Source of the DNA: Candidatus Omnitrophota bacterium
GTDB lineage: Bacteria > Omnitrophota > Gorgyraeia > 1-14-0-20-64-10
Direction of reading: 5' to 3'
DNA length: 64,000 bases
Assembly: GCA_023818695.1 (NCBI GenBank)
Contig: JAMWCF010000001.1
Coordinates: 339,306-403,305 of the forward strand
Shown here: positions 1,341-25,239 of the stretch, one piece after another
How positions within the stretch are numbered: position 1 is the stretch's first letter
How the letters are laid out: every line of letters starts with the position of its first letter
The notes under the pieces: generated by a model
Seen by the model: the letters and a program-made list of their open reading frames with translations, nothing else
What the model was told of the DNA's origin: nothing
Databases searched by the model: none
Program-made: the position numbers and the translations under genes

Positions 1341-2417
1341 ATGCAACCGATCTGCGACATCGTGATCCCGATTTGGAACCAGCCGGAGCTGACCGGTCGA
1401 TGCCTCGAAAGCATCCTGGCCGCCACCCTGGAGCCGGTTCGCTTGATCCTCATCGACAACGGCAGCGAACCGCCGACCAGGGAGCTGCTGGACCGCTTCT
1501 GCGCCTCCTCACGGGTTCAGACAACGCTGATCCGCAATGACGTGAATCTGGGGTTTATCAAGGCGGTCAACCAGGGAATCCAGGCGGCGCAGGCCCCCTG
1601 GATCTGCCTTCTCAACAACGACACCGTCGTCACGCAGGGGTGGCTCACGGAGATGCTCAAAGCGGCCGACCGGATCCCGAACGTGGGGCTGATCAACCCG
1701 ACCAGCAACTCCCTGGGATTCCGGCCCGGAAAGATGCCGCTGGAAGAGTACGCGCAGAATCTGCGGCGGTTCTCCGGCCAAACAACGGAGCTGACGGTGG
1801 CGCTCGGATTCTGCCTGCTGGCCAAAAAATCGGTTTTCGACCAGGTTGGCCTCCTGGATGAATCGTTCGGAATGGGTTACTTCGAAGACGACGACCTGTC
1901 GCGCCGAGTCCGGCGGGCGGGATTCACGAACGTAAGGGCCTGCGGTTCTTACGTCTATCATGAAGAGAAGGGATCCTTCCGCCATCTCAAAGATTCCAAC
2001 CGCTCTTTCGATGAGAACAGGCGCCTTTTCGAGAAAAAGTGGGGACGGCGGCTGCGGATCCTCTGGACCTACTACGGTCCGCAGCTGCCCGGGCCGTTCC
2101 CTGAAAAGACCGCGCTGCGCCTTCTCCAGGAAGGGCACTGGATCACCCTGATGGCTCCCGCCGGAGCGGTGCCTTCGGATCTGTCGTCGCATGCCCAGCT
2201 GATCTGGCGGCAAATCGACGGTTCCCGCTGGCGTCTCCACGCAACATGGCGGCTGCTGACAAAACGGAAAAAGCCGTTTCACATGGCCATCAGCTATGAC
2301 CCGGTATGGTCGGCTTGGGTTCAGCGGCTCAAACTCCTGCACCGAGCGGCCCTTCAGAAAAACCCTTCTGAGGAGGAGATCCTCCGGCAATGCAGGGAGC
2401 TGTCCCATGTCTCCTAA
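1341..2417 (+). CDS. Family 2 glycosyltransferase with about 110-aa C-terminal extension
   Basis: ATG at 1341, 2 nt after the upstream stop. Motifs DIVIPIWNQ, LILIDNGS, LLNNDTVV and GYFEDDDLSRR (DxD region). The 459-1340 part of the long ORF overlaps the SDR gene out of frame. Confidence 0.9.
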   Translation: MQPICDIVIPIWNQPELTGRCLESILAATLEPVRLILIDNGSEPPTRELLDRFCASSRVQTTLIRNDVNLGFIKAVNQGIQAAQAPWICLLNNDTVVTQGWLTEMLKAADRIPNVGLINPTSNSLGFRPGKMPLEEYAQNLRRFSGQTTELTVALGFCLLAKKSVFDQVGLLDESFGMGYFEDDDLSRRVRRAGFTNVRACGSYVYHEEKGSFRHLKDSNRSFDENRRLFEKKWGRRLRILWTYYGPQLPGPFPEKTALRLLQEGHWITLMAPAGAVPSDLSSHAQLIWRQIDGSRWRLHATWRLLTKRKKPFHMAISYDPVWSAWVQRLKLLHRAALQKNPSEEEILRQCRELSHVS

Positions 2418-3468
2418 GATTGAATGCGACATCGTCCTGCTCACCTGGAATCGGGCCGATCTCCTGAAACCCTGCGTCGAGCGGATCCTGCGCTTCACGG
2501 ACGTACCCAGCCGCCTCCTGCTCGTGGACAACGCCAGCACCGAGCCGGAGGCGGTGGAGTACCAGCAGCGGCTGAAGGGCAACGGGACGGTCCAGGTGGA
2601 GGTCATTAGACGCACTCACAACGACGGCTTTTCCAAAGGGATCAATGAGGGACTGCGCCGCGCCACGGCCCCTTGGGTCTGCCTGATGAACAACGACGTT
2701 CTGGTCGCGCAGGGGTGGCTCTCCGAGATGATCCGGGTAGCGAAGGCCCATCCAGAGATCGGGCTTTTAAACCCGATGAGCAACGAATTCGGTGCCTGGC
2801 CCGGCCGCGGCGAAACCATCGACCAGGCGGGGGAACGGGTCAGGCCGCGCAGGGGAGAATGGACCGAGTTCTGGAACTGCGTGGGCTTCTGCGCGCTTAT
2901 GCCCAGGCAGATCCTGGAAAAGGTGGGGATGCTGGATGAGGAGTTCGGCTTCATGTATTACGAGGATGCTGATTATTCACTGCGGGTCCGCCAGGCCGGG
3001 TACTGCTGCGGCATCGCGCTCGGAGCGTACGCCTACCACATCGGCAGCGCCACCATGAGCAGGAACCCGGACAAGGAGAGACTTTTCGAAGCCAACAAGG
3101 AACTGTTCCGAAAAAAATGGGGGCTGCCCCGGTCCGAAAGGATCGCCTGGCTCATGCCGCAAGGGCACAACCATTTCGACGACTCTCTGAAGCAAAGGGA
3201 ACAGATCCGTTTTCTGGCGAACCAGGATCACATCGTCTGGGTTTACTGCACCCCTTACAACAAATCGGCGGTGCCCCGGCACCTGAACGTTTTCTGCGAG
3301 GTCCTGCCGGCGCCGGTCTGCGTGCCGGTGGCCCTCTTGAAAATCCTGCTGAAGAAAAAAGGGTTCCAGCGGCTCATCCTCTCATCGGACAAACAACCGA
3401 GCTCGTGGATGCACTGGGTCGGCCGGATCACAAAAACGCGTGTGGAAACCCCTCCATCCCATGTCTGA
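2407..3468 (+). CDS. Family 2 glycosyltransferase, paralog of the preceding gene
   Basis: ATG 2407 overlaps the upstream gene by 11 nt. Motifs DIVLLTWNR, LLLVDNAS, LMNNDVLV and MYYEDADYSLR are colinear with the 1341-2417 product. Confidence 0.9.
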   Translation: MSPKIECDIVLLTWNRADLLKPCVERILRFTDVPSRLLLVDNASTEPEAVEYQQRLKGNGTVQVEVIRRTHNDGFSKGINEGLRRATAPWVCLMNNDVLVAQGWLSEMIRVAKAHPEIGLLNPMSNEFGAWPGRGETIDQAGERVRPRRGEWTEFWNCVGFCALMPRQILEKVGMLDEEFGFMYYEDADYSLRVRQAGYCCGIALGAYAYHIGSATMSRNPDKERLFEANKELFRKKWGLPRSERIAWLMPQGHNHFDDSLKQREQIRFLANQDHIVWVYCTPYNKSAVPRHLNVFCEVLPAPVCVPVALLKILLKKKGFQRLILSSDKQPSSWMHWVGRITKTRVETPPSHV

Positions 3469-5038
3469 AAAAATTCCCCTCTCTGTCGTCGTGCTGGCGA
3501 AAAATGAGGCCGGCCGGATCACCGAATGCCTCCGGTCGGTCGCCTGGGCCGACGAACTACTGGTCATCGACGATGACAGTTCCGACAACACCGCGGCGAT
3601 CGCCCAATCGATGGGAGCCACAGTCCTGCGCCGAACAATGGACATCGAGGGCCGCCACCGGAACTGGGCCCATTCCCAGGCCAAACATCCCTGGATCCTG
3701 AGTCTGGATGCCGACGAACGGGTCACCCCCGAACTGGAGCAGGAGATCCGCCGGCTGTTCGCCGACGGCCCCCAGTACGAGATCTACACCATCCCCAGAA
3801 GGAATTACATCGGCACCCGGTGGGTCCAGCACGGGGGATGGTACCCCAGCTCCCAGGTGAAGCTGTTCAAACCGGCCGTCTTTCGATGGGAGGAGACGAC
3901 GGTCCATCCGCGGGCAATCTCCGACCGGCCATGGGGCACCCTTCGAAGCGATATCATCCATTATTCCTACAGGGATCTCGGTGATTTCATCGGAAAACTG
4001 AACAGGCAAACGACCCTCGAAGCCCAGAAATGGGTTCAGGACGGCCGCCGGATGACGGCGGGCAAGGCGCTGTGGAGGACGGGCGACCGGTTCTACCGAA
4101 CCTGGGTGGGGAAGAAGGGAAGGCGGGACGGTTTCTTGGGATACGTCGTCGCCGTCTTCGCCGGCTTTTACCAGTTCTTGAGCTTCGCGAAATACTGGCA
4201 CTGGAAACACCGGGGGAAGGAAAGGCCGCCGGACATCAACGGAACAGGATCGCTCAAGGGGAGAAACCGCAGCAGACTCTCGGCCGTGATCCTGGCCAAG
4301 AACGCCGCGGAGAAGATCAGACCCTGTCTGGAATCGGTCCGGTGGATGGACGAGGTCATTGTCGTGGACGGGGGATCGACCGACGGGACGCAGGAGATCT
4401 GCCGCCGGGCTGAAGCGCGGGTGATCGTGGACGAAACGAGCGACGATTTCGGGAAACTGCGCAATGCCGGGACGGCAGCCGCCAGCGGAGACTGGATACT
4501 GCAGTTGGACGCCGATGAGGTGGTCATGCCGGACTTCCGGAAATGGCTCGAATCGCTGGCGCCCGAACCCAAACCCTACGCGGCCTACAAGTTCCGGCGG
4601 CGCAATAATTTTCTCGGCCACTGGATGCGTCACGGCGGGTGGGATCACCTCTCGCTGCACCTCTTTCACAGGGGCAGCGCCCGCTACGAGGGCCGGGTCC
4701 ATGAGAAACTGCTGGTGGAAGGAGCCGTGGGAACCCTGCCGGTGGGGGTGGAGCATTATCCCTTCGGCTCCCTGGAGGAATTCATGGAGAGGCAGAACCG
4801 GTACACCCTCCTGGAGGCCCGCCAGATGCTGGAATCGAACCCAACTCCCCCCATGAAAGAGATCTGGCGGCAGACAACCCTCAAACCAGCAAAACTGTTC
4901 TGGAAGCTGTACATTAAAAAGCAGGGGTTCCGGGAGGGAATGATCGGATTCATCTTCTGCGGACTCTTCGCGTTCGTCCATTTCATGAAATGGATCAAAG
5001 TGTGGGAAATGACTTATGCCAAAAGCGAACCGGTGTAA
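3461..5038 (+). CDS. Tandem double GT2 glycosyltransferase (two WaaE/KdtX-like domains in one polypeptide)
   Basis: Domain 1 has LSVVVLAKNEA, LVIDDDSSDNT, LSLDADE and HYSYRD. Domain 2 (from about nt 4274) has LSAVILAKNAA, IVVDGGSTDGT, LQLDADE and HYPFGS. ATG 3461 overlaps the upstream stop; a GTG at 3440 is an alternative start. Confidence 0.85.
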   Translation: MSEKIPLSVVVLAKNEAGRITECLRSVAWADELLVIDDDSSDNTAAIAQSMGATVLRRTMDIEGRHRNWAHSQAKHPWILSLDADERVTPELEQEIRRLFADGPQYEIYTIPRRNYIGTRWVQHGGWYPSSQVKLFKPAVFRWEETTVHPRAISDRPWGTLRSDIIHYSYRDLGDFIGKLNRQTTLEAQKWVQDGRRMTAGKALWRTGDRFYRTWVGKKGRRDGFLGYVVAVFAGFYQFLSFAKYWHWKHRGKERPPDINGTGSLKGRNRSRLSAVILAKNAAEKIRPCLESVRWMDEVIVVDGGSTDGTQEICRRAEARVIVDETSDDFGKLRNAGTAAASGDWILQLDADEVVMPDFRKWLESLAPEPKPYAAYKFRRRNNFLGHWMRHGGWDHLSLHLFHRGSARYEGRVHEKLLVEGAVGTLPVGVEHYPFGSLEEFMERQNRYTLLEARQMLESNPTPPMKEIWRQTTLKPAKLFWKLYIKKQGFREGMIGFIFCGLFAFVHFMKWIKVWEMTYAKSEPV

Positions 5039-5627
5039 AAAGCGGGCCGTTTTCCTCGATAGAGATGGGGTCATCAATCTACCTCCCAAACACCGGTTCA
5101 TCAGACATTGGGATGAGTTCCGGTTCATCCCGGGGACCCTTGCCGCCATCCGGCGGATGACCGTCCGGAAGATCGCGCTGGTGATCATCTCCAACCAGTC
5201 CGGCGTGGGTCGCCGGATCATGAGCCGGGCCCGGCTGGAAGAGATCCACCGCCGGATGATGGCTGCCGTCCGCCGACACGGCGGAAAGATCCTGGCGGCC
5301 TACTACTGCACCCACCATCCGGACCGGCGCTGCGGATGCCGGAAGCCCAAAACAGGGATGCTCACAAAAGCCGCGCGTGAACACGGAATCGATCTGAACC
5401 GATCGATCGTTGTCGGGGACAGGGAAACCGACATTCTGATGGCCCATGCAGCCGGCTGCCGCAGCGCCCTGGTCCTTTCCGGCAAACACGATAGGAAAAG
5501 CGCCAGCCGACTCGCCGTCCGTCCGGACAAAATCTTCCCGGACCTGTCCAGGACCGTCCCCTGGATACTCAAGGAAATGCAAAAGAAACCAAGCGCCGCC
5601 ATCCCCACTCCGGGGAGGCCTGCTTGA
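5016..5627 (+). CDS. gmhB: D-glycero-D-manno-heptose 1,7-bisphosphate phosphatase-like HAD phosphatase
   Basis: HAD motif I FLDRDGVIN; SNQSGVGRR; Zn-type CTHHPDRRCGCRKPKTGM; VGDRETD. Confidence 0.8.
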   Translation: MPKANRCKKRAVFLDRDGVINLPPKHRFIRHWDEFRFIPGTLAAIRRMTVRKIALVIISNQSGVGRRIMSRARLEEIHRRMMAAVRRHGGKILAAYYCTHHPDRRCGCRKPKTGMLTKAAREHGIDLNRSIVVGDRETDILMAHAAGCRSALVLSGKHDRKSASRLAVRPDKIFPDLSRTVPWILKEMQKKPSAAIPTPGRPA

Positions 5628-5637: not shown

Positions 5638-6750
5638 ATGCGGATCCTTCTCCTGCATGTGCCGGCCGGCGCGGGGCATCAACGGGCCTGCGAAGCAATC
5701 GCGGCCGCCTTCCATGAAAGGGGGCTGCAGATCGACGTCACGGTCAAAGACGCTCTCATCGGAGGCAACCGCATCTACCGGTGGGCGTTCACGAAGGGGT
5801 ATATCCGGCTGATCCATTCGTTCCCTTTTCTGTGGGGGATCGCCTATTACCTGACCGACATCCGGCCCTTGAACGGATTGATGCAGCGGCTTCACCGCTT
5901 GAGCAACGCCATGCACGGCAGCCGTCTCTCATCCTACCTGATCGAAAAGAAACCGGACGTCATCATCGGAACCCATTTCTTCCCAATGGAGGTGGCCGGC
6001 TGGCTTAAGTCGAGGGGAAAGATCACGAGCCGGCTTATCACGGTGGTAACCGATTACCAGCCGCACGCCCTGTGGGCCGCGCCTGGCATCGACACCTACG
6101 TCGTCGCCTCTCCCGAAGCGGGAGAAGAGTTGAGAAAGCGGGGGATCCCTCCGGACAAAATCAAACTGATCGGCATACCGGTCGATCCTAAATTTTCGTT
6201 CAACGGCACCCGTCCGGAGCTGGTCAAGAAACTCGGCTTGAAAGAGGGGACCTTCACCGTGCTGGTTGGCTCCGGTGGAGCGGGGACCGGTCCGGTGGTT
6301 GCACTGGTCAAGGCGCTGTGCGAATCCCAGGAACCGGTCCAGATGCTGGTTGTCGCCGGCTCCAACACCTCCCTCTTCGAAAAACTGGTCAGGATGAAAC
6401 CGTCCCTGCGGCACCCGGTGCATGTCTACGGCTTCATCAATAATATGGACGAGCTGATGGAGATCGCCGACCTGGTCGTCTCGAAACCGGGAGGGCTCAC
6501 CTGCACCGAAGCGCTGGCCAAACAGGTGCCCCTGGTGCTGGTCGCCCCCATCCCCGGCCAGGAAACGAACAACGCAAAAACGATGGTCTCCATGGGGGTG
6601 GCGGTCTGGGCGCGGAACGTCCAAGCGGCGGCCGGCTGGGTCCAGAAATTGCGGAACAACCGGCCGCTCCTGGAGGAGATGCGTCAAAAAGCGAAGGAAC
6701 AGGCCTGTCCGGACGCAGCGGCCCGGATCACCCGCCTGGTGATGCCATGA
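5638..6750 (+). CDS. MGDG-synthase-like / diacylglycerol glycosyltransferase (GT28 family)
   Basis: ATG 5638 is preceded by GAGGAGG. N-terminal MRILLLHVPAGAGHQRA and C-terminal SKPGGLTCTEALAKQVP...PIPGQE motifs are typical of the UgtP/MGDG synthase family. Confidence 0.75.
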   Translation: MRILLLHVPAGAGHQRACEAIAAAFHERGLQIDVTVKDALIGGNRIYRWAFTKGYIRLIHSFPFLWGIAYYLTDIRPLNGLMQRLHRLSNAMHGSRLSSYLIEKKPDVIIGTHFFPMEVAGWLKSRGKITSRLITVVTDYQPHALWAAPGIDTYVVASPEAGEELRKRGIPPDKIKLIGIPVDPKFSFNGTRPELVKKLGLKEGTFTVLVGSGGAGTGPVVALVKALCESQEPVQMLVVAGSNTSLFEKLVRMKPSLRHPVHVYGFINNMDELMEIADLVVSKPGGLTCTEALAKQVPLVLVAPIPGQETNNAKTMVSMGVAVWARNVQAAAGWVQKLRNNRPLLEEMRQKAKEQACPDAAARITRLVMP

Positions 6751-13005: not shown

Positions 13006-15265
<2,260 letters not shown>

Positions 15266-15269
<4 letters not shown>

Positions 15270-16476: not shown

Positions 16477-16555
16477 ACTCGGTTTCTTTCTGCTGGCCGT
16501 CGGATTTTTCACCTCCGGCACCGCCGTTTTTTCCTCCGAATCACTCCCCGAAGCG

Positions 16556-18097
16556 ATGGAGCGCCACCTTCCTGCCGTGGGGGACGCCTACGTCAGCGGA
16601 ACTATCGGGGAACCGATCACCCTGATCCCGATCCTGGCATCCGATTCCCCCTCCGCGGAGGTCTGCGGCCTCGTTTACAACGGCCTGGTCAAATACGACA
16701 AGGATCTTGAGCTGATCGGCGACTTGGCCGATCGGTGGGAGATAAGCCCCGACGGCCTGGAAATCCGCTTTTTCCTGCGCAAGGGGATCCGGTGGCACGA
16801 CGGCGTCCCCTTCACCGCGGAAGATGTCGAGTTCACCTATCGGCGCCTGATCGACCCGGCGGTCCCCACCCCTTACCGAGGGGACTTCGAACGGATCGAA
16901 TCGGTGAAGGTGCTCGACCCCTGGACATTGCTGGTCCGCTACAAGGAACCGTTCGCGCCGGCCCTCTCCTCCTGGGGGATGGGGATCCTCCCCAAACATC
17001 TGCTGGAGGGGGCGGACCTGATGCGAACACCTTTGAGGGAGAAGCCGGTGGGAACCGGCCCCTTCCGGTTCCATCGATGGGTCCGGGGAGACCGGGTGGA
17101 ACTGAAGGCCAACCCGGACTACTTTGAAGGCCGGCCGTTCCTGGACTGGATCGTCCTGCGGGTCATCCCGGACCAAGGAACCATTTTTCTCGAACTCCAA
17201 GTGGAGGGGCTCGACTCGGCGGGGCTGACCCCTCTGCAGTTTTCCCGATCCTCCAACAACCCCCGTTTTTCGGATCTGTTTCATAAATTCCATTATCCGA
17301 GCTTCGGCTACACCTATCTGGGCTACAATCTGCGGGACCCGAAATTCCGGGACCCGCTCGTCCGGCAGGCCCTCAATGCCGCGATCAACAAGGAGGAGAT
17401 CATCCGAGGGGTGCTTTTGGGTTACGGCCGGGAAGCGACCGGTCCCTATCCGCAGGAATCCTGGGCCTTCGATCCAGCCATCCGACCCGCCCCTTACGAT
17501 CCCCGGCGGGCCAAGGAGCTGCTGGCCCAGGCCGGCTGGAAAGATGCCGACGGCGACGGCATTCTGGAAAAAGAGGGAATCCCTTTCGAATTCACAATCC
17601 TAACCAACCAGGGGAATCTCACCAGAGAACTCGCCGCGCAGATCATCCAGCAGCGGCTGGCCGCCATCGGTATCCGGGTGAAGATCTGGATCCTGGAGTG
17701 GTCCGCGCTCCTGCACGAGTTTATCGACAAGGGGAAGTTCGAAGCGATCTTGATGGGATGGAGTCTCTCGAGGGATCCGGATCAGTTCGATCTTTGGCAC
17801 TCCTCGAAGATAAAGCCGGGGGAGTTCAACTTCATCGGCTATTCCAACCCCGAGGCCGACCGGCTGCTGGAAGAGGGCCGCAGGACCTTCGACCCCCTCC
17901 GGCGCCAAGAGATCTACCGCCGCTTCCACCGGCTCCTTTACGAGGACCAGCCGGTCTGCTTCCTCTACGTCCCGGAAGCGTTGCCGGCGGTTCACCGGCG
18001 TTTTCAGGAGGTGGAGGTTTCCGCCATCGGTGTGGGCTATAATCTGATCCATTGGTACGTACCGTCCAACAAGCAGCGATACCGGATGGAGCCATGA
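16556..18097 (+). CDS. ABC transporter substrate-binding protein, family 5 (OppA/DppA-like); N-terminus probably extends upstream
   Basis: Typical SBP_bac_5 sequence (WHDGVPFTAEDV, GTGPFRF, ANPDYFEG). 16556 is the first ATG, but the in-frame upstream codons encode a signal-peptide-like segment (see findings). Confidence 0.85.
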   Translation: MERHLPAVGDAYVSGTIGEPITLIPILASDSPSAEVCGLVYNGLVKYDKDLELIGDLADRWEISPDGLEIRFFLRKGIRWHDGVPFTAEDVEFTYRRLIDPAVPTPYRGDFERIESVKVLDPWTLLVRYKEPFAPALSSWGMGILPKHLLEGADLMRTPLREKPVGTGPFRFHRWVRGDRVELKANPDYFEGRPFLDWIVLRVIPDQGTIFLELQVEGLDSAGLTPLQFSRSSNNPRFSDLFHKFHYPSFGYTYLGYNLRDPKFRDPLVRQALNAAINKEEIIRGVLLGYGREATGPYPQESWAFDPAIRPAPYDPRRAKELLAQAGWKDADGDGILEKEGIPFEFTILTNQGNLTRELAAQIIQQRLAAIGIRVKIWILEWSALLHEFIDKGKFEAILMGWSLSRDPDQFDLWHSSKIKPGEFNFIGYSNPEADRLLEEGRRTFDPLRRQEIYRRFHRLLYEDQPVCFLYVPEALPAVHRRFQEVEVSAIGVGYNLIHWYVPSNKQRYRMEP

Positions 18098-19077
18098 GCC
18101 GATATCTCCTTTTTCGCCTGCGGTCGCTGATTCCCGTCTTCTTCGGGATCACGGCCATCAGCTTCGCCGTGATGCACCTGGCGCCGGGCAAGCCGACCGA
18201 CTCGATCACCGATCTGAACGTCAAGGTCTCCCTGCAGGCGAAAGAGCAGCTGATCAAGCTCTACGGTCTGGACCGCCCGGTGCATGTGCAGTACCTGGAC
18301 TGGCTCACAAGGATTGTGCGGGGGGACTTCGGCCGCTCCTTCAAAGACGGCAGGCCGGTGTCGGCGAAGATCGCGGAGCGGATCCCGCTGACCCTGCTCC
18401 TGAACGGGCTGGCCCTCTTCTTCATCCTGCTGCTGTCGGTCCCCCTGGGGGTCGTCAGCGCGGCGAGGGAGGGGTCTGTCTTCGACCACCTGGTGACTCT
18501 CTTTGTCTTCATCGGCTTCGCCCTGCCAACGTTCTGGGTGGCCCTGCTGGCGGTCGATTTCTTCGGAGTGAAGATGGGCTGGCTACCTGTCTCGGGCCTT
18601 TTTTCGCTGGGGGCCGACCGTCTGCCGCTCCAGGAACGGATCGCGGACGCGGCCCGGCACCTGGTCCTGCCGGTCGGCGTCATTGTCTTCGGCGGACTGG
18701 CCGGTTATTCCCGCTACGTCCGTTCCGGCATGCTGGAGGTGCTCCAGCAGGATTACATCCGGACCGCCTACGCCAAAGGATTAAAAAGATCGGAGGTCCT
18801 CTACAAGCACGCCCTGCGCAACGCGCTGCTGCCGATGATCACGGTCCTGGGGCTTTCGGTCCCGGGGCTGATCAGCGGCTCGGTGATCTTTGAGTCGATC
18901 TTCGCCCTGCCCGGGATGGGGCGCCTCTTCTATGAGGCGGTCATGGGCCGGGACGGGCCGGTGATCATGGGAATCCTGGTGATCGGGGCGGGGCTGACCC
19001 TGCTTGGGAACCTAATAGCCGACATCGCCTATGCGTACGCCGACCCGAGAATCCGGCATGGGGAGCCGGCCTCATGA
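18094..19077 (+). CDS. ABC transporter permease (DppB/OppB-like)
   Basis: ATG 18094 forms ATGA with the SBP stop. MSRYLLFRLRSLIPVFFGITAISF, YIRTAYAKGL, multiple TM segments. Confidence 0.9.
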   Translation: MSRYLLFRLRSLIPVFFGITAISFAVMHLAPGKPTDSITDLNVKVSLQAKEQLIKLYGLDRPVHVQYLDWLTRIVRGDFGRSFKDGRPVSAKIAERIPLTLLLNGLALFFILLLSVPLGVVSAAREGSVFDHLVTLFVFIGFALPTFWVALLAVDFFGVKMGWLPVSGLFSLGADRLPLQERIADAARHLVLPVGVIVFGGLAGYSRYVRSGMLEVLQQDYIRTAYAKGLKRSEVLYKHALRNALLPMITVLGLSVPGLISGSVIFESIFALPGMGRLFYEAVMGRDGPVIMGILVIGAGLTLLGNLIADIAYAYADPRIRHGEPAS

Positions 19078-19880
19078 AGAAGCGCTGCGCCTCCGGAATG
19101 TTTCTCGGAAGCATCATGCTGTTATCCATCCTCTTTGGCGCCGCGCTGTTCGCCCCGCAACTGACCGGAGCGGACCCCCGGGAAATCCGGCTGGAAGAGG
19201 CCCTGCTGGGTCCCTCCTGGCAGCACCCGTTCGGGACCGACCAGCTGGGGAGGGACGTCTACGCCCGGATGCTTTACGGAGCGAGGGTCTCCATCGCTGT
19301 CGGCTTCGTGGCGGTGGGAATCGCCACCCTTCTGGGAGTCCTGATCGGATCGGTTTCCGGCTATCTGGGAGGGTGGATTGACACCGTGCTGATGCGCTTC
19401 ACCGACATCATGCTCTGTTTTCCGACCCTCTTTCTAATCCTTGCGGCGATCGCTTTTCTGGGGCCCAGCATCTTCAACATCATGGCGATCATTGGTCTGA
19501 CCGGCTGGATGGGGGTCGCCCGTCTGGTCCGGGCCGAAATACTGACCTTGAAGGAGAGGGAATTCGTGCAGGCGGCCCGCGTCATCGGCTGCTCCCATCC
19601 GCGGATCATCCTCCGGCATCTGCTGCCTAACGCCATGGCGCCGGTGATTGTCAGCGCCACACTGGGAATCGGCTCGGCGGTGCTGATCGAATCGGCCTTG
19701 AGTTTTCTGGGGATCGGCGTCCAGCCGCCAGACCCCAGCTGGGGAAATATCCTGGCGGAAGGAAAATCGACGCTGGGGGTGGCTCCCTGGCTGATCGTGA
19801 TCCCTGGGATCGCCATCTGTTGGATCGTTCTGGGATTCAACATGCTCGGAGAAGCGCTGCGCCAGCGATGGAGGAGCTGA
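19074..19880 (+). CDS. ABC transporter permease (DppC/OppC-like)
   Basis: PFGTDQLGRDV, EFVQAARVIGCS, TM-rich; ATGA overlap. Confidence 0.9.
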   Translation: MKKRCASGMFLGSIMLLSILFGAALFAPQLTGADPREIRLEEALLGPSWQHPFGTDQLGRDVYARMLYGARVSIAVGFVAVGIATLLGVLIGSVSGYLGGWIDTVLMRFTDIMLCFPTLFLILAAIAFLGPSIFNIMAIIGLTGWMGVARLVRAEILTLKEREFVQAARVIGCSHPRIILRHLLPNAMAPVIVSATLGIGSAVLIESALSFLGIGVQPPDPSWGNILAEGKSTLGVAPWLIVIPGIAICWIVLGFNMLGEALRQRWRS

Positions 19881-19885
19881 CCGCC

Positions 19886-20704
19886 ATGGAAGAACCGTCC
19901 ATGATCCGGCAGAAACTGAAAAAAGCGGCCCGCAAAATTCGGCGGGCGATCCTGCGGGATGAACCGGGCTACTACGACATGTTCATGAACAAAGGGGAAC
20001 ATTTTTTCGGCCGGCTCTATCTTCATGAGATCACCCGAATCCTCGAAGAGGAAAAGAGAAACCCACCCCTGAAAATCCTGGACGCTGGCTGTCAGTCCGG
20101 CCGTCTGACGGTCCCCCTGGCGGCGGCTGGCCACGACGTCACCGGCGTGGACACCTCCGACCTGGCCCTTCGGCGGGCTAGGAAACACGCGGCCGAGATG
20201 AAAACCTCTTTCCGGCCGGTCCGGGCCGACCTCTCCTCGTGGCTGCCGAAACAGCCGCAGGGGTTTTTCGACGCCGTCCTCTGCACCGAGGTCCTTTACA
20301 TGAGGGAAAACCACCTGGAGCTGCTGGAGGGGCTCCTGAAGGTCTTGAAACCGGGCGGACTGTGCTTCATCTCCCACCGGCCGACCGGCTACTACCTGGC
20401 CGAGGCCTTCCGGAAAGGGGACAAGCAGGCGATTGAAACCCTGACCGGCGCCTCCGAGGGAATTCTTTTCGGCTCTTATTACAACTGGCAGAGCAGGGAA
20501 GAGCTCCGAACACTCTACAGCCGCTTTCCCGTGGAGGTGTTGAGCATCGTTCCGATCGGCTTCCTCTCCTGGGCAGTGATCGATCCCAGCGGCCTGGAGC
20601 CAGAAATGGAGGAGCTCCTTTTCCAGGTGGAAACCGCCCCGGAACATCGGCAGAACGACTGCGGCCGGTATCTGCTGGTTTCGGCGAGGAAGAAAACGTC
20701 ATGA
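19886..20704 (+). CDS. Class I SAM-dependent methyltransferase
   Basis: Motif I ILDAGCQSGR; post-I acidic residue GVD; LKPGG. The start is ambiguous (19868, 19886 or 19901); 19886 is the first ATG after the upstream stop. Confidence 0.75.
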   Translation: MEEPSMIRQKLKKAARKIRRAILRDEPGYYDMFMNKGEHFFGRLYLHEITRILEEEKRNPPLKILDAGCQSGRLTVPLAAAGHDVTGVDTSDLALRRARKHAAEMKTSFRPVRADLSSWLPKQPQGFFDAVLCTEVLYMRENHLELLEGLLKVLKPGGLCFISHRPTGYYLAEAFRKGDKQAIETLTGASEGILFGSYYNWQSREELRTLYSRFPVEVLSIVPIGFLSWAVIDPSGLEPEMEELLFQVETAPEHRQNDCGRYLLVSARKKTS

Positions 20705-21399
20705 GCTGGTGGTACCCGCCGATTCTGGCTTACCACCGGGTCGATCCCTCCGCCGGAGGGGACACGCCGACGGTCTCCCCTTCCGTCTTCGAAAAGCAGA
20801 TGTCGATCATCTCCCGGTACTGGAACCCGATCTCTCTCGAGGAATGGGTCCACAACAGGCAGAAAGGCCTTCCTTTCCAGAAAGGTCGGGTGGCGGTCAC
20901 GTTTGACGACGGCTCTGGTGATCTTTACCTTTACGCCTATCCGGTCCTCCGGAAACACAAGATCCCGGCGACCGTCTTCCTGATCGTCTCAAACATCGGC
21001 AAACCGGGCTGGCTTCAGCCGGACCAGATCCGGCAAATGGCCGCCGGCGGCATCTCCTTCGGAAGTCACACGATCCATCACGCCTACCTGCCGTCCCTTC
21101 CCAGGGAAAAGATACGGGAGGAGCTCTCCGGCTCCAAAAAGGAACTGGAATCGATGGGGATCCAGGCCCGTTTCTTGAGCTATCCGGGCGGCGGCTTCAA
21201 TCCGGAAATCCAATGCATGGCGGCCGGGGCCGGCTATGAAGCGGCCTGCACCACCAACCGGGGTCTTCGCCGCCAGCCGGTCGACCTCTGGGCCATCCGT
21301 CGGATCGCCATCCATGAAAACAGCCGGACGCCATTCGACTTCTGGATCCGCTGCCGCGGCTACTACGGGTTGAACCGGCGGCTGCGCTCTCCCTCCTGA
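20701..21399 (+). CDS. Polysaccharide deacetylase (CE4 / NodB homology domain), cytoplasmic
   Basis: ILAYHRV, TFDDG, metal-binding SHTIHH, YPGGGF; no signal peptide; ATGA overlap with the methyltransferase. Confidence 0.85.
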   Translation: MSWWYPPILAYHRVDPSAGGDTPTVSPSVFEKQMSIISRYWNPISLEEWVHNRQKGLPFQKGRVAVTFDDGSGDLYLYAYPVLRKHKIPATVFLIVSNIGKPGWLQPDQIRQMAAGGISFGSHTIHHAYLPSLPREKIREELSGSKKELESMGIQARFLSYPGGGFNPEIQCMAAGAGYEAACTTNRGLRRQPVDLWAIRRIAIHENSRTPFDFWIRCRGYYGLNRRLRSPS

Positions 21400-21401
21400 A
21401 A

Positions 21402-22367
21402 ATGGACGCCATCCTGCGCCTACGGAACGTCAAGACCCAGATCGCAGACAGAATTCCTCCTGTCCGGGCGGTGGACGGGGTAGACCTGGAGATCGCCCCG
21501 GGACAGATGCTGGCTCTCATCGGAGAATCCGGCTGCGGCAAGACGATACTGGCCCTCTCGATCGGCCGGCTCCTGCCGCCATCGGCCCGGGTGACCGCGG
21601 GGGAAATCCTTTTTGAGGGAGATGACCTCTTGGAGCTGGAGGAGGACCAGCTGCGGAGAATCCGCGGGAAGAAGATCTCCTACATCTTTCAGGACCCGAT
21701 GAGCTCCCTGAACCCCGTCATGTCGATCGGGGAACAGCTGGAGGAAGCGATCCGACTTCACCAGCCGGAGCTGGACAAAACAGCCCGGAGGCGAACGGCC
21801 CTTGCCCTGCTCGAACAGGTCCGGATCAACGTCCCGGAAAGCCGGCTACGGCAGTACCCCCACCAGCTCTCCGGCGGCATGCGGCAAAGGATCATGATCG
21901 CCATGGCGCTGGCGGGGAAACCGGCTCTGCTGATCGCGGACGAACCGACCACCGCTCTGGACGTGACGACGCAGGCGGAAATCATGCGGATCCTCAAAGA
22001 ACTCCAGAGGACCCGCCGGATGGCAGTCCTGCTGATCACGCACGACCTGGCCGGTGTTGCGCCGATCGCTGACCGGATCGCGGTGATGTACGCGGGACGG
22101 ATCGTGGAAACGGCGCCAGCGGCGCAGCTGTATCAGAACCCGTCCCATCCCTACACGCAGGCCCTGCTGGGGTGCGTGCCGCGGGTCGGCGGAGGGAAAC
22201 AACTCCTGAAACCGATCCCGGGGACGGTTCCGGATTTAAGACAGATCCCGCCCGGCTGTCCTTTCCATCCCCGATGCCCGGAATCGATCACCCGCTGCTC
22301 TCAAGAGGAACCGGTCCTGAAACCGGATGACGGACGGCGGGTCAGCTGCTGGGTCCGTGCTCCATGA
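21402..22367 (+). CDS. ABC transporter ATP-binding protein (DppD/OppD-like)
   Basis: Walker A GESGCGKT, signature LSGGMRQR, Walker B LLIADEPT, C-terminal oligopeptide-type extension with CPFHPRC. Confidence 0.93.
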   Translation: MDAILRLRNVKTQIADRIPPVRAVDGVDLEIAPGQMLALIGESGCGKTILALSIGRLLPPSARVTAGEILFEGDDLLELEEDQLRRIRGKKISYIFQDPMSSLNPVMSIGEQLEEAIRLHQPELDKTARRRTALALLEQVRINVPESRLRQYPHQLSGGMRQRIMIAMALAGKPALLIADEPTTALDVTTQAEIMRILKELQRTRRMAVLLITHDLAGVAPIADRIAVMYAGRIVETAPAAQLYQNPSHPYTQALLGCVPRVGGGKQLLKPIPGTVPDLRQIPPGCPFHPRCPESITRCSQEEPVLKPDDGRRVSCWVRAP

Positions 22368-23155
22368 ACCAGCCGATCCTGCAGACCATCGACCTTTCCA
22401 AGCGGTTCCCCCTGCGACCGCTGCCTTTCTCCCCAGCACGCGGATGGATCCACGCCGTGCAGGAGGTTTCGCTTGAAATCAGGCGCGGGGAATCGGTCGG
22501 GCTGGTCGGTGAATCCGGCTGCGGTAAAAGCACGCTGTCCCGTCTGCTGTGCAAACTCCTGGAGCCGTCCGATGGAAAGATCCTGTTTCGCGGAGAGGAG
22601 ATCTCTCGCCTCCGGTCCGGCTCCCTGAAAGAATTCCGCAGGAGAGTCCAGCTGATCTTCCAAGACCCGATGGCCTCGCTCAACCCCCTGATGCGCATCG
22701 GCCAAATCATCGCGGAGCCGATGCAGATCCACCGTCTGATTGCAAACCGGGAGGTGCGCCAGAGGGTTCACGGCCTGATGGAGGAGGTCGGACTAGACCC
22801 AGCGTTGGAAAACCGGTTTCCACACATGTTGAGCGGCGGCCAAAAACAGAGGGTCGGTATCGCCCGGGCCCTCTCCCTGGAGCCAGAACTGCTGATCTGC
22901 GACGAACCGGTCTCTTCCCTGGACTTGTCGGTCGGGGCCCAAATCCTGCGACTGCTGTCTGACCTGCAAAGGAAAAAGTCTGTCGCCCTCTTCTTCATCT
23001 CCCACAACCTGGCCACCGTCAGCGCGGTCGCCGACAGGGTGCTGGTCATGAAAGAGGGCCGGATCATCGAGGAGGGAGCCAACCCGGATCTCTTCCGGCA
23101 GCCGGCCCATCCATACACGCAACTGCTTGTGAAGCTGGCTTTCCAAACGCTATAA
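22364..23155 (+). CDS. ABC transporter ATP-binding protein (DppF/OppF-like)
   Basis: GESGCGKST, LSGGQKQRV, LLICDEPVSSLD, HPYTQ. Confidence 0.93.
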   Translation: MNQPILQTIDLSKRFPLRPLPFSPARGWIHAVQEVSLEIRRGESVGLVGESGCGKSTLSRLLCKLLEPSDGKILFRGEEISRLRSGSLKEFRRRVQLIFQDPMASLNPLMRIGQIIAEPMQIHRLIANREVRQRVHGLMEEVGLDPALENRFPHMLSGGQKQRVGIARALSLEPELLICDEPVSSLDLSVGAQILRLLSDLQRKKSVALFFISHNLATVSAVADRVLVMKEGRIIEEGANPDLFRQPAHPYTQLLVKLAFQTL

Positions 23156-23164
23156 TGAAACGCT

Positions 23165-24400
23165 ATGCCGACGATGAAGAACGTCATCACTTTTGTCATG
23201 GCCGGGGGCCGGGGGGAGCGCCTGATGCCGCTGACTCGGGACAGGGCGAAACCCGCCGTCCCGTTCGGAGGGATCTACCGGATCATCGATTTCACCCTTT
23301 CCAACTGCATCAATTCCGGAATCCGGAAGATCCACGTCCTGACGCAGTATAAATCGATCTCCCTGGTGCGGCACCTCTGGATGGGATGGAACATTTTCGA
23401 CGCGGAATTGGGCGAATACATCGACATCATCCACCCCCAGCAGCGCCTGGAGGACCATCAGTGGTACCAGGGAACCGCCGATTCGGTGTACCAGAACCTC
23501 TACTCGATCGATATGGAGGGGGCGGACTACACCCTGGTCCTGGCAGGAGACCACATCTACAAGATGGATTACGGCCAGATGTTCGAGTTCCACAAACAGA
23601 TGGAGGCCGACGTAACCATCGGAATCGTCAAGGTCCCGCTGGGGGGAGCCGCTTCCCTCGGCGTGGTGGAACTGGACAGAGACTCTCGAATCACGCGCTT
23701 CCTCGAAAAGCAAAAAGACCCCCCCACGATCCCGGGCGATCCGAACCATTGCTACGCCTCCATGGGGATCTATCTTTTCAGCAGGAAGGTCCTCGAAGAG
23801 GAGCTGGTGGCTGACGCGAAGCGGCCGGAATCGGCCCATGATTTCGGGAAAAACATCCTGCCCAGCTGCGTCCAGCAGGGAAGAAAAGTGGTCGGCTATT
23901 CCCTGGTGGGACCCAGAAGCCAGCAGCAGAGCTATTGGCGGGATGTCGGGACGATCGACGCTTATTTCGACGCGAACATGGACCTGGCGGGGGTGGCGCC
24001 GGTGCTGAACCTGTATGACAAAGAATGGCCGATCCGGACCTTCATGGAACAGCACCCGCCGGCGAAGTTCGTCTTCTCCGGCGAGAAGGAGCCAGGCCGC
24101 ATCGGCACCGCCATTGAATCGCTGGTTTCCCCCGGCTGCATCGTTTCAGGCGGCAAGGTCGTCCACTCCGTCCTTTCTCCAAAAGTGCGGATCAACAGCT
24201 ACGCCGAAGTCCAGGACTCCGTCCTCATGGAAGGGGTGGACGTCGGCAGGCACTGCAAAATCAAGCGGGCGATCATCGATAAAGATGTTAAAATTCCTCC
24301 CTCGACGGTCATTGGCTACCATCCGGACGAGGACAGGAAACGTTTCCACGTCTCGGAATCCGGCATCACCGTCGTGGCGAAAAGAACGGAGCTGACTTAA
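23165..24400 (+). CDS. glgC: Glucose-1-phosphate adenylyltransferase
   Basis: AGGRGERLMPLTRDRAKPAVPFGG, YRIIDF, WYQGTADSV, left-handed beta-helix C-terminus. Confidence 0.93.
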   Translation: MPTMKNVITFVMAGGRGERLMPLTRDRAKPAVPFGGIYRIIDFTLSNCINSGIRKIHVLTQYKSISLVRHLWMGWNIFDAELGEYIDIIHPQQRLEDHQWYQGTADSVYQNLYSIDMEGADYTLVLAGDHIYKMDYGQMFEFHKQMEADVTIGIVKVPLGGAASLGVVELDRDSRITRFLEKQKDPPTIPGDPNHCYASMGIYLFSRKVLEEELVADAKRPESAHDFGKNILPSCVQQGRKVVGYSLVGPRSQQQSYWRDVGTIDAYFDANMDLAGVAPVLNLYDKEWPIRTFMEQHPPAKFVFSGEKEPGRIGTAIESLVSPGCIVSGGKVVHSVLSPKVRINSYAEVQDSVLMEGVDVGRHCKIKRAIIDKDVKIPPSTVIGYHPDEDRKRFHVSESGITVVAKRTELT

Positions 24401-24403
24401 CCG

Positions 24404-25201: not shown

Positions 25202-25239
25202 GAGTCATTCACGGTCAGACCAGATAAGGACAAAAAACA

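What the first reader, a model, noticed from the sequence alone, without database searches (positions are those of the whole stretch)
19886..21399. Methyltransferase and CE4 deacetylase inserted between the permease and ATPase genes of an Opp/Dpp-type ABC operon
The usual order is SBP, permease, permease, ATPase, ATPase. Here it is interrupted after the second permease by a class I SAM methyltransferase (ILDAGCQSGR) and a cytoplasmic CE4 deacetylase. The deacetylase has all catalytic motifs intact (TFDDG, HTIHH, YPGGGF). The junctions are tight: 5 nt, an ATGA overlap, then 2 nt, so all seven genes look co-transcribed. Family 5 SBP transporters are known to import oligosaccharides such as chitobiose as well as peptides. 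The embedded enzymes therefore suggest uptake and cytoplasmic deacetylation or methylation of an N-acetylated glycan or muropeptide-like substrate, rather than plain peptides.
Basis: partly seen in the sequence, partly recalled or inferred. Interest (0 to 1): 0.55.

Follow-up and report, generated by a model that had tools for sequence, protein, structure and literature searches.

The report
Glycan-modifying gene pair inside peptide transporter operon
In one lineage of the uncultured phylum Omnitrophota, a deacetylase gene and a methyltransferase gene that elsewhere sit in a cell-envelope sugar-synthesis cluster have moved into the middle of an ordinary peptide-uptake operon; this is a real and conserved gene order, but probably a rearrangement rather than a new sugar-import pathway.

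Summary
The window, from an Omnitrophota MAG, has SBP, permease, permease, methyltransferase (19886-20704), CE4 deacetylase (20701-21399), ATPase, ATPase, with junctions of 5 nt, an ATGA overlap and 2 nt.

The same order occurs in at least six other Omnitrophota genomes whose CE4 is 45-59% identical.

The proposed function, uptake and cytoplasmic processing of an N-acetylated glycan or muropeptide, is not supported:
- The binding protein is closest to the peptide binder AppA (322 bits). Chitin and sugar binders reach about 83-87 bits.
- An outgroup lineage has the same operon, uninterrupted, at the same place after secG.
- In the sister clade the MT-CE4 pair lies inside a glycosyltransferase cluster, between a GT2 gene and a YpfP-like gene. 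The window keeps that cluster 14 kb upstream without the pair.
- Tight junctions are the local norm: 27 co-directional, mostly unrelated genes.

The CE4 is a PplD/IcaB/PgaB-type de-N-acetylase with every catalytic residue conserved and no signal peptide.

Best reading (confidence about 0.5): a NodB/NodS- or ArnD-like cytoplasmic step that modifies an envelope glycoconjugate, relocated into a peptide-type Opp operon.

One point stays open. A subclade replaced the ABC genes with an MFS transporter directly upstream of the pair, so a link to transport is not excluded.

The parts
16478..18097 (+). Family 5 substrate-binding protein of the Opp-type importer. The first ATG is at 16556. A signal-peptide-like segment, LGFFLLAVGFFTSGTAVFSS, is encoded in frame at 16478-16555 with no canonical start codon.
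   Evidence: Pfam SBP_bac_5 5e-93. Best solved relative is AppA 1xoc at 4e-95. Orthologues are 59-75% identical across Omnitrophota and are named peptide-binding protein. Upstream frame.
18094..19077 (+). Permease 1 (OppB/DppB/NikB-like)
   Evidence: BPD_transp_1 7.6e-42 plus BPD_transp_1_N. The best NCBIfam matches are nickel and oligopeptide permeases, all below their cut-offs.
19074..19880 (+). Permease 2 (OppC/DppC/NikC-like)
   Evidence: BPD_transp_1 1.2e-29. Opp4C 305 bits and NikC 281 bits, both below cut-off.
19886..20704 (+). Class I SAM-dependent methyltransferase of a narrow family seen almost only in Omnitrophota. It has a cationic, amphipathic N-terminal helix.
   Evidence: Methyltransf_23/25/11. 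About 108 homologues at 37-63% identity, then a sharp drop to E of about 1e-5. Model pLDDT 91.8. Fold matches are generic: CmoM, TM1389, UbiG. N-terminal helix has charge +5 to +8 and muH 0.5-0.8.
20701..21399 (+). CE4 de-N-acetylase of the PplD/IcaB/PgaB type, without signal peptide or membrane anchor
   Evidence: PF01522 1.4e-27. Model pLDDT 89.7. Foldseek best match is PplD 6dq3, TM 0.84, followed by BC0361, BA0330, IcaB and PgaB. H12, D69, D70, H123, H127 and R201 are invariant or nearly so and correspond to PplD H105, D167, D168, H223, H227 and R302 (PMC8807736).
21402..22367 (+). ATPase 1 (OppD/DppD-like), with the full C-terminal oligo_HPY domain and a Cys motif
   Evidence: ABC_tran 1.9e-31 and oligo_HPY 1e-21.
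22364..23155 (+). ATPase 2 (OppF/DppF-like), with a truncated C-terminal domain
   Evidence: ABC_tran 7e-35.
1344..5038 (+). Upstream run of GT2 glycosyltransferase genes. This is the cluster that holds the MT-CE4 pair in the sister clade.
   Evidence: tblastn with the L005 GT2 proteins gives 37-66% identity. Pfam Glycos_transf_2.
5016..5627 (+). GmhB-like HAD phosphatase. It occupies the slot between the last GT2 gene and the YpfP-like gene, where MT-CE4 lie in the sister clade.
   Evidence: Pfam Hydrolase_like. NCBIfam heptose-1,7-bisphosphate phosphatase 174 bits against a cut-off of 178. Compare L005.
5650..6750 (+). YpfP/UgtP-like (MGDG_synth plus GT28 C-terminal domain) glycosyltransferase. 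Its orthologue follows CE4 directly in the sister clade.
   Evidence: Pfam MGDG_synth 5e-31. NCBIfam diglucosyl-DAG synthase 184 bits, below the cut-off of 500. 35% identical to the L005 gene.

Best explanation
The MT-CE4 pair is a two-enzyme module that modifies a cell-envelope glycoconjugate, not imported material.

Proposed mechanism (inferred):
- The CE4 works on the cytoplasmic side of the membrane. It removes the N-acetyl group from an N-acetylhexosamine residue of a lipid-linked sugar or glycolipid made by the upstream GT2 and YpfP-like glycosyltransferases.
- The methyltransferase then decorates the product, most simply by methylating the freed amine. Its cationic N-terminal helix may hold it at the membrane.
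- This is the logic of NodB then NodS on NodC products, and of ArnD on undecaprenyl-phosphate-linked aminoarabinose.

Proposed history:
- In the ancestor of this Omnitrophota clade the pair moved about 14 kb, out of the glycosyltransferase cluster and into the gap between permC and atpD.
- The recipient was an older, phylum-wide, peptide-type Opp operon on the same strand of the same long string of genes.
- The seven genes are probably co-transcribed. That reflects genome compaction, not a shared pathway, and the transporter most likely still imports peptides.

Shown: gene order, conservation, catalytic residues, lack of an export signal, the ancestral context, and the existence of the uninterrupted operon.
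Inferred: the substrate, the membrane-face location, N- rather than O-methylation, and the absence of coupling to transport.
For: 1. Ancestral context. In L005, L009, L010, L011, L016, L090 and L095 the CE4 (38-44% identical to the window's) lies at the end of a run of GT2 genes, next to the YpfP-like GT where that gene is in the fetched stretch. In four of these loci (L005, L011, L016, L090) the co-orthologous MT is detected directly upstream of it. L005 also has a GT87 and an FkbM methyltransferase.
2. The window keeps that cluster on the same strand at 1344-6750, with a GmhB-like gene in the pair's former slot. There is only one CE4 and one MT copy in the 64 kb, and no further MT homologue on the 697-kb contig.
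3. NJ trees of CE4, MT, gap and pgk all separate a GT-type clade from a transporter-type clade. That pattern fits one relocation followed by vertical descent.
4. An outgroup (L174-L177) has secG-SBP-permB-permC-atpD-atpF at the same syntenic place without the pair. SBP homologues of 58% identity or more fill the top 120 hits of 6561.
5. There is no sign of a change of function. 53 CE4 positions are conserved identically in both clades and 2 are conserved but different; for MT the figures are 54 and 5. SBP divergence from the pair-less lineage (62% identity) matches gap and pgk (59%).
6. The CE4 fold and active site match de-N-acetylases of surface glycans: PplD TM 0.84, then IcaB and PgaB. It has no signal peptide, unlike those enzymes and like NodB and ArnD (established knowledge; NodB/NodS in PMC11681206).
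7. More distant homologues also sit in glycan clusters: L006 among GT4 and Wzm/Wzt genes, and 17 other loci with GT2 hits within the fetched locus (up to 10 kb from CE4).
8. The gene string tolerates unrelated insertions. L171 has NYN and an unknown gene between SBP and permB; L170 has HTH and an unknown gene after atpF; L174 has MarC.
9. Spacers across 27 co-directional genes are mostly -23 to +9 nt.
10. L169 keeps CE4 but has lost MT. That fits an optional decoration step following an essential deacetylation.
Against: - The pair has stayed exactly between permC and atpD across a clade whose CE4 has diverged to 45% identity.
- When the ABC genes were lost in one subclade (L001, L088, L172), a BT1-family MFS transporter appeared directly upstream of MT with an 8-nt overlap. 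A transporter therefore always precedes the pair in this clade, which is the pattern expected for a functional link.
- No substrate was identified. The MT fold search is unspecific.
- The GT87 gene of L005 is not in the window.
- Whether the other transporter-type genomes keep the GT cluster could not be seen.
- The trees are simple NJ trees without support values.
Confidence: 0.5

Rival explanations
1. The Opp-type system imports an N-acetylated oligosaccharide or muropeptide-like compound, and the embedded CE4 and MT process it in the cytoplasm.
For: - The genes are embedded with overlapping or near-overlapping junctions, and this is conserved in seven genomes.
- The CE4 is cytoplasmic and catalytically intact.
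- Family 5 SBPs are known to bind sugars in some lineages, for example 1zty and 4pfu.
- The diverse CE4 contexts show no other transporter link that would explain the pattern, but the ABC-to-MFS swap does keep a transporter upstream.
Against: - The SBP is AppA-like at 322 bits. Sugar and chitin binders score 83-87 bits.
- The same operon exists uninterrupted in an outgroup, with proportionate SBP divergence.
- The pair descends from a biosynthetic GT cluster.
- Methylation has no obvious role in catabolism.
- No glycosidase, kinase or other sugar-catabolic gene is nearby.
- The replacement MFS belongs to the BT1 (folate/biopterin) family. It scores only 36.7 bits against the AmpG muropeptide-permease model, whose cut-off is 350.
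Confidence: 0.12
2. The pair is functionally tied to a transporter, but for a non-sugar cargo or cofactor. After relocation it would act on, or depend on, something that both the Opp system and the BT1-type MFS can bring in, such as a modified peptide, a pterin- or folate-like compound, or S-adenosylmethionine for the MT. The ABC-to-MFS change would then be a non-orthologous replacement of the uptake step.
For: - The MFS clade is monophyletic and nested inside the ABC clade in all four trees.
- The MFS gene overlaps MT by 8 nt in L001 and L172.
- The MFS is a clear BT1-family member, Pfam 1.2e-43.
- From general knowledge, not tested here: this family includes folate, biopterin and, in Leishmania, S-adenosylmethionine carriers.
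Against: - No known substrate is shared by AppA-like Opp systems and BT1 carriers.
- All characterised close relatives of the CE4 act on GlcNAc in glycans.
- The conserved cores of CE4 and MT are unchanged from the GT-cluster clade.
- The swap can also be explained by a single replacement of SBP-permB-permC followed by decay of the now useless ATPase genes.
- L003 lacks the ATPases but keeps the pair.
Confidence: 0.15
3. The pair acts on some other cytoplasmic target unrelated to both the transporter and the GT cluster, for example a peptidoglycan or LPS precursor or a small metabolite. Its position would then simply be neutral drift within a compact genome.
For: - The MT has no specific assignment.
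- CE4-fold enzymes include non-glycan amidohydrolases; PuuE allantoinase appears among the weak fold hits.
- The gene string mixes glycolysis, secretion, amino-acid and thiamine genes.
Against: - MT and CE4 stay adjacent, often overlapping, in both clades, and are linked to GT2 and YpfP-like genes in the sister clade.
- The nearest structural relatives are all GlcNAc de-N-acetylases.
Confidence: 0.15

Closest known systems
PplD (S. pyogenes), IcaB and PgaB: the CE4 de-N-acetylase subgroup with swapped N- and C-termini
   Same: - Same fold: TM 0.84 to 6dq3, followed by IcaB 4wcj and PgaB.
- Same catalytic set: an N-terminal His (YH motif), the Asp-Asp of TFDDG, the HxxxH metal ligands, and a C-terminal Arg that holds the catalytic Asp (PMC8807736).
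   Different: - Those enzymes are extracytoplasmic, with a signal peptide, lipoprotein anchor or transmembrane helix. This one starts directly at the barrel with no export signal.
- Sequence identity is only 25-29%.
- NCBIfam PgaB and IcaB scores are far below their cut-offs.
NodB plus NodS of rhizobial Nod-factor synthesis
   Same: - A cytoplasmic CE4 de-N-acetylase is paired with a SAM-dependent methyltransferase.
- They act one after the other on the product of a GT2 glycosyltransferase. NodS methylates the amine freed by NodB (PMC11681206).
- The pair here descends from a GT2 gene cluster, and the methyltransferase is dispensable in one lineage (L169).
   Different: - Neither protein is a family member. 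NodB model: 44 bits against a cut-off of 240. NodS: Pfam 22.1 against 24, NCBIfam 22.3 against 300.
- The CE4 is of the PplD/PgaB type, not the canonical NodB type.
- There are no NodA or NodC homologues, and the substrate is unknown.
ArnD (and Bordetella LgmC) of lipid A aminosugar modification
   Same: From established knowledge: a CE4-fold deacylase without export signal acts at the cytoplasmic face on a polyprenyl-phosphate-linked aminosugar made by a GT2 enzyme, before the sugar is flipped and transferred by a GT-C enzyme. The L005 cluster has GT2 genes and a GT-C (GT87) gene next to the pair.
   Different: - Homology to ArnD was not tested directly.
- No GT87- or ArnT-like gene was found in the window.
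- No Arn-type flippase was identified.
B. subtilis App / Opp-type peptide importers (PepT family, TC 3.A.1.5)
   Same: - Five-component architecture.
- The SBP's best solved relative is AppA (1xoc, 4e-95).
- oligo_HPY domain above its Pfam cut-off on atpD, weak match on atpF.
- Omnitrophota genome studies describe this system as an oligopeptide importer (PMC8542988).
   Different: - The operon is split by two unrelated enzyme genes.
- The SBP lacks a canonical start codon ahead of its signal peptide.
- No NCBIfam equivalog cut-off is reached, so specificity is unassigned.
Opp/Dpp-type operons that carry cargo-processing enzymes (E. coli ddpXABCDF, B. subtilis dppA-E, the Agrobacterium acc operon, the V. 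cholerae chitobiose operon)
   Same: Enzyme genes are co-transcribed with a family 5 SBP transporter. This is general knowledge and was not tested here.
   Different: In those systems the enzyme and the transporter share a substrate. Here the pair and the transporter each occur without the other in related genomes, and the pair's ancestry is biosynthetic.

Membership tests
Carbohydrate esterase family 4 (Pfam Polysacc_deac_1, PF01522) | Match to the family model above the curated cut-off | tested here: met
   96.5 bits against a cut-off of 23.1.
Carbohydrate esterase family 4 | Asp-His-His metal triad plus catalytic Asp and His | tested here: met
   D70, H123 and H127 (metal ligands), D69 and H12 are invariant or at least 90% conserved in 24 sequences. 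They align to PplD D168, H223, H227, D167 and H105.
PplD/IcaB/PgaB-type CE4 subgroup | Swapped termini: catalytic His N-terminal to the TFDD motif, and a C-terminal Arg replacing the MT3 Arg | tested here: met
   H12 in ILAYHRV. R201 is invariant. Foldseek TM 0.84 to 6dq3 and 0.79 to IcaB. The subgroup is described in PMC8807736.
PplD/IcaB/PgaB-type CE4 subgroup | Extracytoplasmic location (signal peptide, lipobox or transmembrane anchor) | tested here: not met
   The protein begins MSWWYPPILAYHRV at the first strand. Orthologues do the same. More distant homologues such as P0112 and the Veillonella protein do carry an N-terminal transmembrane segment.
NodB chitooligosaccharide deacetylase (TIGR04243) | Score above the equivalog cut-off | tested here: not met
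   44 bits against a cut-off of 240.
NodS N-methyltransferase (PF05401 / NF041650) | Score above the family cut-off | tested here: not met
   Pfam 22.1 against 24. NCBIfam 22.3 against 300. The profile against PDB gives NodS 3ofj only 33 bits, behind UbiG at 59 bits.
Class I SAM-dependent methyltransferase | Rossmann-type fold with the glycine-rich SAM motif | tested here: met
   Methyltransf_23, Methyltransf_25 and Methyltransf_11 are all above cut-off. LDAGCQxGRL is conserved. Model pLDDT 91.8 with the canonical strand order.
Opp/Dpp/Nik-type ABC importer (PepT family) | Family 5 SBP, two BPD_transp_1 permeases, and two ATPases with an oligo_HPY C-terminal domain | tested here: met
   SBP_bac_5 (312 bits), both BPD_transp_1 permeases and both ABC_tran ATPases are above their Pfam cut-offs. 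oligo_HPY is above its cut-off in atpD (77.5 bits vs 27.1) but below it in atpF (20.2 bits), whose C-terminal domain is truncated.
Oligosaccharide-binding family 5 SBPs (chitobiose CBP, Thermotoga/Pyrococcus sugar binders) | Closer similarity to sugar binders than to peptide or nickel binders | tested here: not met
   AppA 322 bits, NikZ-like 231 bits, GsiB 167 bits and DppA 154 bits, against mannoside binder 4pfu at 87 bits and chitin-oligosaccharide binder 1zty at 83 bits. This rests on similarity only; ligand binding was not tested.
Cargo-processing transporter operon (enzyme and transporter share a substrate) | Enzyme and transporter co-occur across genomes and do not occur apart | tested here: inconclusive
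   - The pair occurs without a transporter in the GT-type clade.
- The transporter occurs without the pair in L174.
- The pair occurs with an MFS instead of the ABC system.
- Within the derived clade, however, a transporter gene always precedes the pair.

The most novel reading that the evidence does not exclude
After it moved, the MT-CE4 pair became a true partner of an uptake system. These Omnitrophota, many of which are thought to depend on hosts, would then import an acetylated, host- or environment-derived compound through Opp. In one subclade a BT1-type MFS replaced Opp for this purpose. The imported compound would be de-N-acetylated and methylated in the cytoplasm. That would be a salvage or remodelling route with no described counterpart, built from enzymes recruited from envelope glycan synthesis.
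Probability: 0.15. Interest if true: 0.6.

Novelty: new variant of a known kind. Interest (0 to 1): 0.3.

Why it matters
If the best reading holds, this is a worked example of a general caution. In compact genomes with very long co-directional gene strings, embedding and overlapping junctions do not show a shared pathway, and annotating guilt-by-association functions such as "chitobiose importer" would be wrong.

It also defines an uncharacterised, Omnitrophota-restricted enzyme pair: a cytoplasmic PplD-like de-N-acetylase and its dedicated methyltransferase. The pair probably puts an amino or methylamino sugar into the envelope of a phylum with almost no cultured members. That bears on surface charge and on interactions with hosts or prey.

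The ABC-to-MFS swap directly upstream of the pair is the one feature that could turn this into something more interesting.

Tried and rejected
- Terminators, promoters, riboswitches and flanking repeats around the insert. No Rfam hit was found in the window. No repeats flank 19886-21399. GC content matches the neighbours. The only consensus matches are two weak terminator-like sites inside MT and one promoter-like site at 23127-23156, ahead of glgC. There is therefore no sign of a mobile or recently acquired cassette.
- AmpG-like muropeptide permease as the identity of the MFS in the sister subclade. Rejected: AmpG model 36.7 bits against a cut-off of 350, while Pfam BT1 gives 1.2e-43. The MFS has no solved homologue by sequence, so an LtaA-like glycolipid flippase could not be tested.
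- The Veillonella loci L047 and L055, where a CE4 gene follows a complete Opp-type operon. This looked like an independent recurrence. However, that CE4 has an N-terminal transmembrane helix, lies 148 nt after the last ATPase gene, and is only 28-32% identical. It was treated as coincidental.
- Apparent N-terminal truncation of the CE4 in L168 and L173, which would have removed the catalytic His. Rejected: the YH motif is intact in frame, and the gene callers chose late start codons.
- Assigning the methyl acceptor from sequence or fold. NCBIfam, a PDB profile search and Foldseek all gave only generic class I matches.
It was repeated with database homologues.
- The literature searches found no paper on this gene pair or on Omnitrophota deacetylases.
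Full report
**What is there.** On the + strand the window carries a long run of genes:
- 226-12977: epimerase, four GT2 domains, a GmhB-like phosphatase, a YpfP-like glycosyltransferase, udg, priA, def, fmt and two galT-like genes
- gap (13027-14064), pgk, tpiA and secG (16045-16476)
- a family 5 SBP (first ATG at 16556, ends 18097)
- two permeases (18094-19077 and 19074-19880)
- a class I methyltransferase (19886-20704)
- a CE4 deacetylase (20701-21399)
- two ATPases (21402-22367 and 22364-23155)
- glgC, thiG, leuB, asd and truA

Pfam confirms every assignment. The quoted motifs (ILDAGCQSGR, TFDDG, HTIHH, YPGGGF) are all present. The source is a Candidatus Omnitrophica MAG: both proteins have 100% matches on a 697-kb contig.

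**Is the order real and conserved?** Yes. Gene maps around CE4, MT and SBP homologues show several arrangements:

| Arrangement | Loci |
|---|---|
| secG-SBP-permB-permC-MT-CE4-atpD-atpF | window, L007, L008, L168, L170, L171, L173 (CE4 45-59% identical) |
| Same, without MT | L169 |
| SBP-permB-permC-MT-CE4, no ATPases after it | L003/L004 |
| secG-MFS-MT-CE4-thiG, no ABC genes | L001/L002, L088, L172 |

The MFS belongs to the BT1 family (Pfam 1.2e-43). The CE4 genes in L168 and L173 looked N-terminally truncated, but that was due to late start calls; the YH motif is intact in both.

**Where the pair came from.**
- Seven loci carry CE4 orthologues 38-44% identical to the window's: L005, L009, L010, L011, L016, L090 and L095. 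There CE4 lies at the end of a run of GT2 genes, directly before the YpfP/UgtP-like glycosyltransferase where that gene is in view. The orthologous MT is detected directly upstream of CE4 in four of them (L005, L011, L016, L090).
- In L005 the same cluster also holds a GT87 and an FkbM methyltransferase. Where the locus reaches that far, udg, priA and def follow, and gap-pgk-tpi lie 7-8 kb downstream.
- The window contains this same cluster on the same strand at 1344-6750. The GT2 genes are 37-66% identical to those of L005 and the YpfP-like gene is 35% identical.
- In the window, the slot between the last GT2 gene and the YpfP-like gene holds a GmhB-like phosphatase instead of MT-CE4.
- There is one CE4 and one MT copy in the 64 kb. 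No further MT homologue lies on the 697-kb contig, and none of the best 120 CE4 hits does either.
- NJ trees of CE4, MT, gap and pgk all split a GT-type clade from a transporter-type clade. All four place the MFS genomes as one group nested among the ABC genomes.

The simplest history is one relocation of the pair by about 14 kb along the same gene string. Later, one subclade replaced the ABC genes with an MFS.

**The transporter is older than the insertion.**
- The SBP has 6561 homologues below 1e-60. The top 120 are all at least 58% identical and nearly all come from Omnitrophota, where sources name them "peptide-binding protein".
- One of these, P0297 (62% identical), sits in L174-L177 in the order priA-def-fmt-galT-galT-gap-pgk-tpi-secG-SBP-permB-permC-atpD-atpF-MarC-glgC-thiG. 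That is the same syntenic place, uninterrupted.
- This lineage is about equally distant from the window clade and from the GT-type clade (gap 57-59%). The uninterrupted operon after secG is therefore the ancestral state.
- SBP identity between the window and L174 (62%) is no lower than for gap (59%), pgk (59%) or permB and permC (60% and 65%). Nothing suggests the binding protein changed specificity when the pair arrived.
- Among solved structures the SBP is closest to B. subtilis AppA (1xoc, 4e-95, 322 bits). Nickel, glutathione and dipeptide binders follow. The V. cholerae chitin-oligosaccharide binder and a Thermotoga mannoside binder reach only 83 and 87 bits.

**How much do the tight junctions mean?** Little. 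From 226 to 27325 there are 27 co-directional genes. Their spacers are mostly between -23 and +9 nt (for example priA>def 3, def>fmt -1, glgC>thiG 3, leuB>asd 1), and the genes span glycolysis, secretion, replication restart, translation, thiamine and amino-acid synthesis.

The string also accepts unrelated insertions elsewhere:
- an unknown gene and a NYN-domain gene between SBP and permB in L171
- an HTH gene and an unknown gene after atpF in L170
- MarC after atpF in L174

Consensus scans find no promoter inside the seven genes and only two weak terminator-like matches inside MT. One promoter-like site lies just before glgC. There is no Rfam element, no flanking repeats and no compositional break. 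Co-transcription of the seven genes is therefore likely, but it is not evidence of a shared substrate.

**What the enzymes are.**

*CE4.*
- The model is confident (pLDDT 89.7). Its best structural match is S. pyogenes PplD (6dq3, TM 0.84), followed by BC0361, BA0330, IcaB and PgaB. Canonical CE4 enzymes such as PgdA and chitin deacetylases align over only half the fold.
- PplD, IcaB and PgaB have swapped termini, a catalytic His before the TFDD motif, and a C-terminal Arg that holds the catalytic Asp (PMC8807736).
- The equivalents here are H12, D69, D70, H123, H127 and R201. All are invariant or nearly so across 24 homologues.
- Unlike all those enzymes, this protein and its orthologues have no signal peptide or anchor. 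More distant homologues do have one (P0112, and the Veillonella protein).

*MT.*
- It belongs to a narrow family: about 108 homologues at 37-63% identity, then a drop to E of about 1e-5.
- It is a standard class I enzyme (pLDDT 91.8).
- Sequence and fold matches are generic: UbiG, CmoM and TM1389. NodS reaches only 33 bits.
- Its N-terminal helix is strongly cationic (+5 to +8) and amphipathic. That fits binding at a membrane surface but does not prove it.

Both proteins keep the same conserved core in the GT-type and transporter-type clades. For CE4, 53 positions are identical and 2 are conserved but different; for MT the figures are 54 and 5. This argues against a new activity after relocation.

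**Most likely mechanism (confidence about 0.5).** A cytoplasmic, PplD-like de-N-acetylase frees the amine of an N-acetylhexosamine on a lipid-linked sugar or glycolipid built by the upstream GT2 and YpfP-like enzymes. The methyltransferase then decorates the product.

There are two precedents:
- NodB then NodS on NodC products (PMC11681206).
- From established knowledge, ArnD acting on undecaprenyl-phosphate-linked aminoarabinose.

Loss of MT alone in L169 fits an optional decoration step. The Opp system most likely still imports peptides, as genome studies of the phylum assume (PMC8542988). The substrate, the membrane-face location and N- rather than O-methylation are inferences.

**What keeps the alternative alive.** Within the derived clade a transporter gene always lies directly upstream of the pair. 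When the ABC genes disappeared, a BT1-type MFS took that place with an 8-nt overlap onto MT. Two explanations fit:
- one replacement of SBP-permB-permC, followed by decay of the orphaned ATPase genes;
- non-orthologous replacement of an uptake step that serves the pair.

A transport link with some other cargo or cofactor gets about 0.15, and an unrelated cytoplasmic target about 0.15.

**Novelty and score.** Enzyme genes embedded in Opp/Dpp-type operons are a known theme, as are CE4-plus-methyltransferase pairs in glycan synthesis. Three things are new here:
- a cytoplasmic PplD-type CE4 with a dedicated methyltransferase family restricted to Omnitrophota;
- its documented relocation into the middle of a conserved peptide importer operon;
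- the later transporter swap.

I rate this a new variant of a known kind, interest 0.3.

Noticed in passing
window 16440-16560: The SBP's signal-peptide-like segment (KLGFFLLAVGFFTSGTAVFSS) is encoded in frame upstream of the first ATG (16556). No ATG, GTG or TTG lies between it and the preceding stop. A CTG at 16461-16463, overlapping the end of secG, is a candidate start. The closest relative, P0235 (75% identical), is also called without a signal peptide, whereas other orthologues have normal ones. The cause could be a rare start codon, an assembly error or a damaged gene.
   Followed up: partly
window 3440-5038: Two GT2 domains lie in one 532-aa ORF. They are homologous to two separate genes of L005 (GT2b and GT2e). 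This is either a gene fusion or a missed stop.
   Followed up: no
window 21402-23155 compared with L174 13433-15218: In the window clade the first ATPase carries the full C-terminal oligo_HPY domain with the Cys motif (CPFHPRCP) and the second is truncated. In the uninterrupted L174 operon it is the other way round. The ATPases are also the most diverged parts of the operon (50% and 44%, against about 60-65% for SBP and the permeases).
   Followed up: partly
L171 5622-7386: An unknown 342-aa gene and a NYN-domain gene are inserted between the SBP and permB genes of the same operon in another Omnitrophota MAG. The operon is therefore split in a second place there.
   Followed up: no
L169 8220-10676: One genome has CE4 alone between permC and atpD, with no methyltransferase.
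   Followed up: partly
L003 3831-9480: This locus has SBP-permB-permC-MT-CE4 with no ATPase genes after it. An HTH gene, a GGDEF gene and type II secretion ATPase genes follow. It is unknown whether the ATPases are encoded elsewhere.
   Followed up: no
L001 6081-7220, L088 8051-9187, L172 7869-9008: A 379-aa BT1-family (folate/biopterin transporter-like) MFS gene replaces the whole ABC system directly upstream of MT in one subclade. Its substrate is unknown, and it has no solved homologue by sequence.
   Followed up: partly
window 226-27325: 27 consecutive + strand genes of unrelated function are packed with spacers mostly between -23 and +9 nt. This is a very long co-directional string, largely syntenic across the clade.
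   Followed up: partly
window 10898-12977: Two tandem, diverged galT-like genes (GalP_UDP_transf/HIT) lie just upstream of gap. The arrangement is conserved in several related loci.
   Followed up: no
window 16045-16476: SecG is 143 aa and has a long low-complexity Ala/Pro/Gln/Glu-rich C-terminal tail. Orthologues range from 99 to 144 aa.
   Followed up: no
L047 261-6351 and L055 (Veillonella): A complete Opp-type operon is followed by a CE4 gene of the same broad subgroup. [quoted passage not shown]
   Followed up: partly
window 12500-25500: The scan found 23 terminator-like matches against 12 +/- 3 expected from shuffles. Most lie inside coding sequence and many are on the minus strand. The excess is unexplained.
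   Followed up: no
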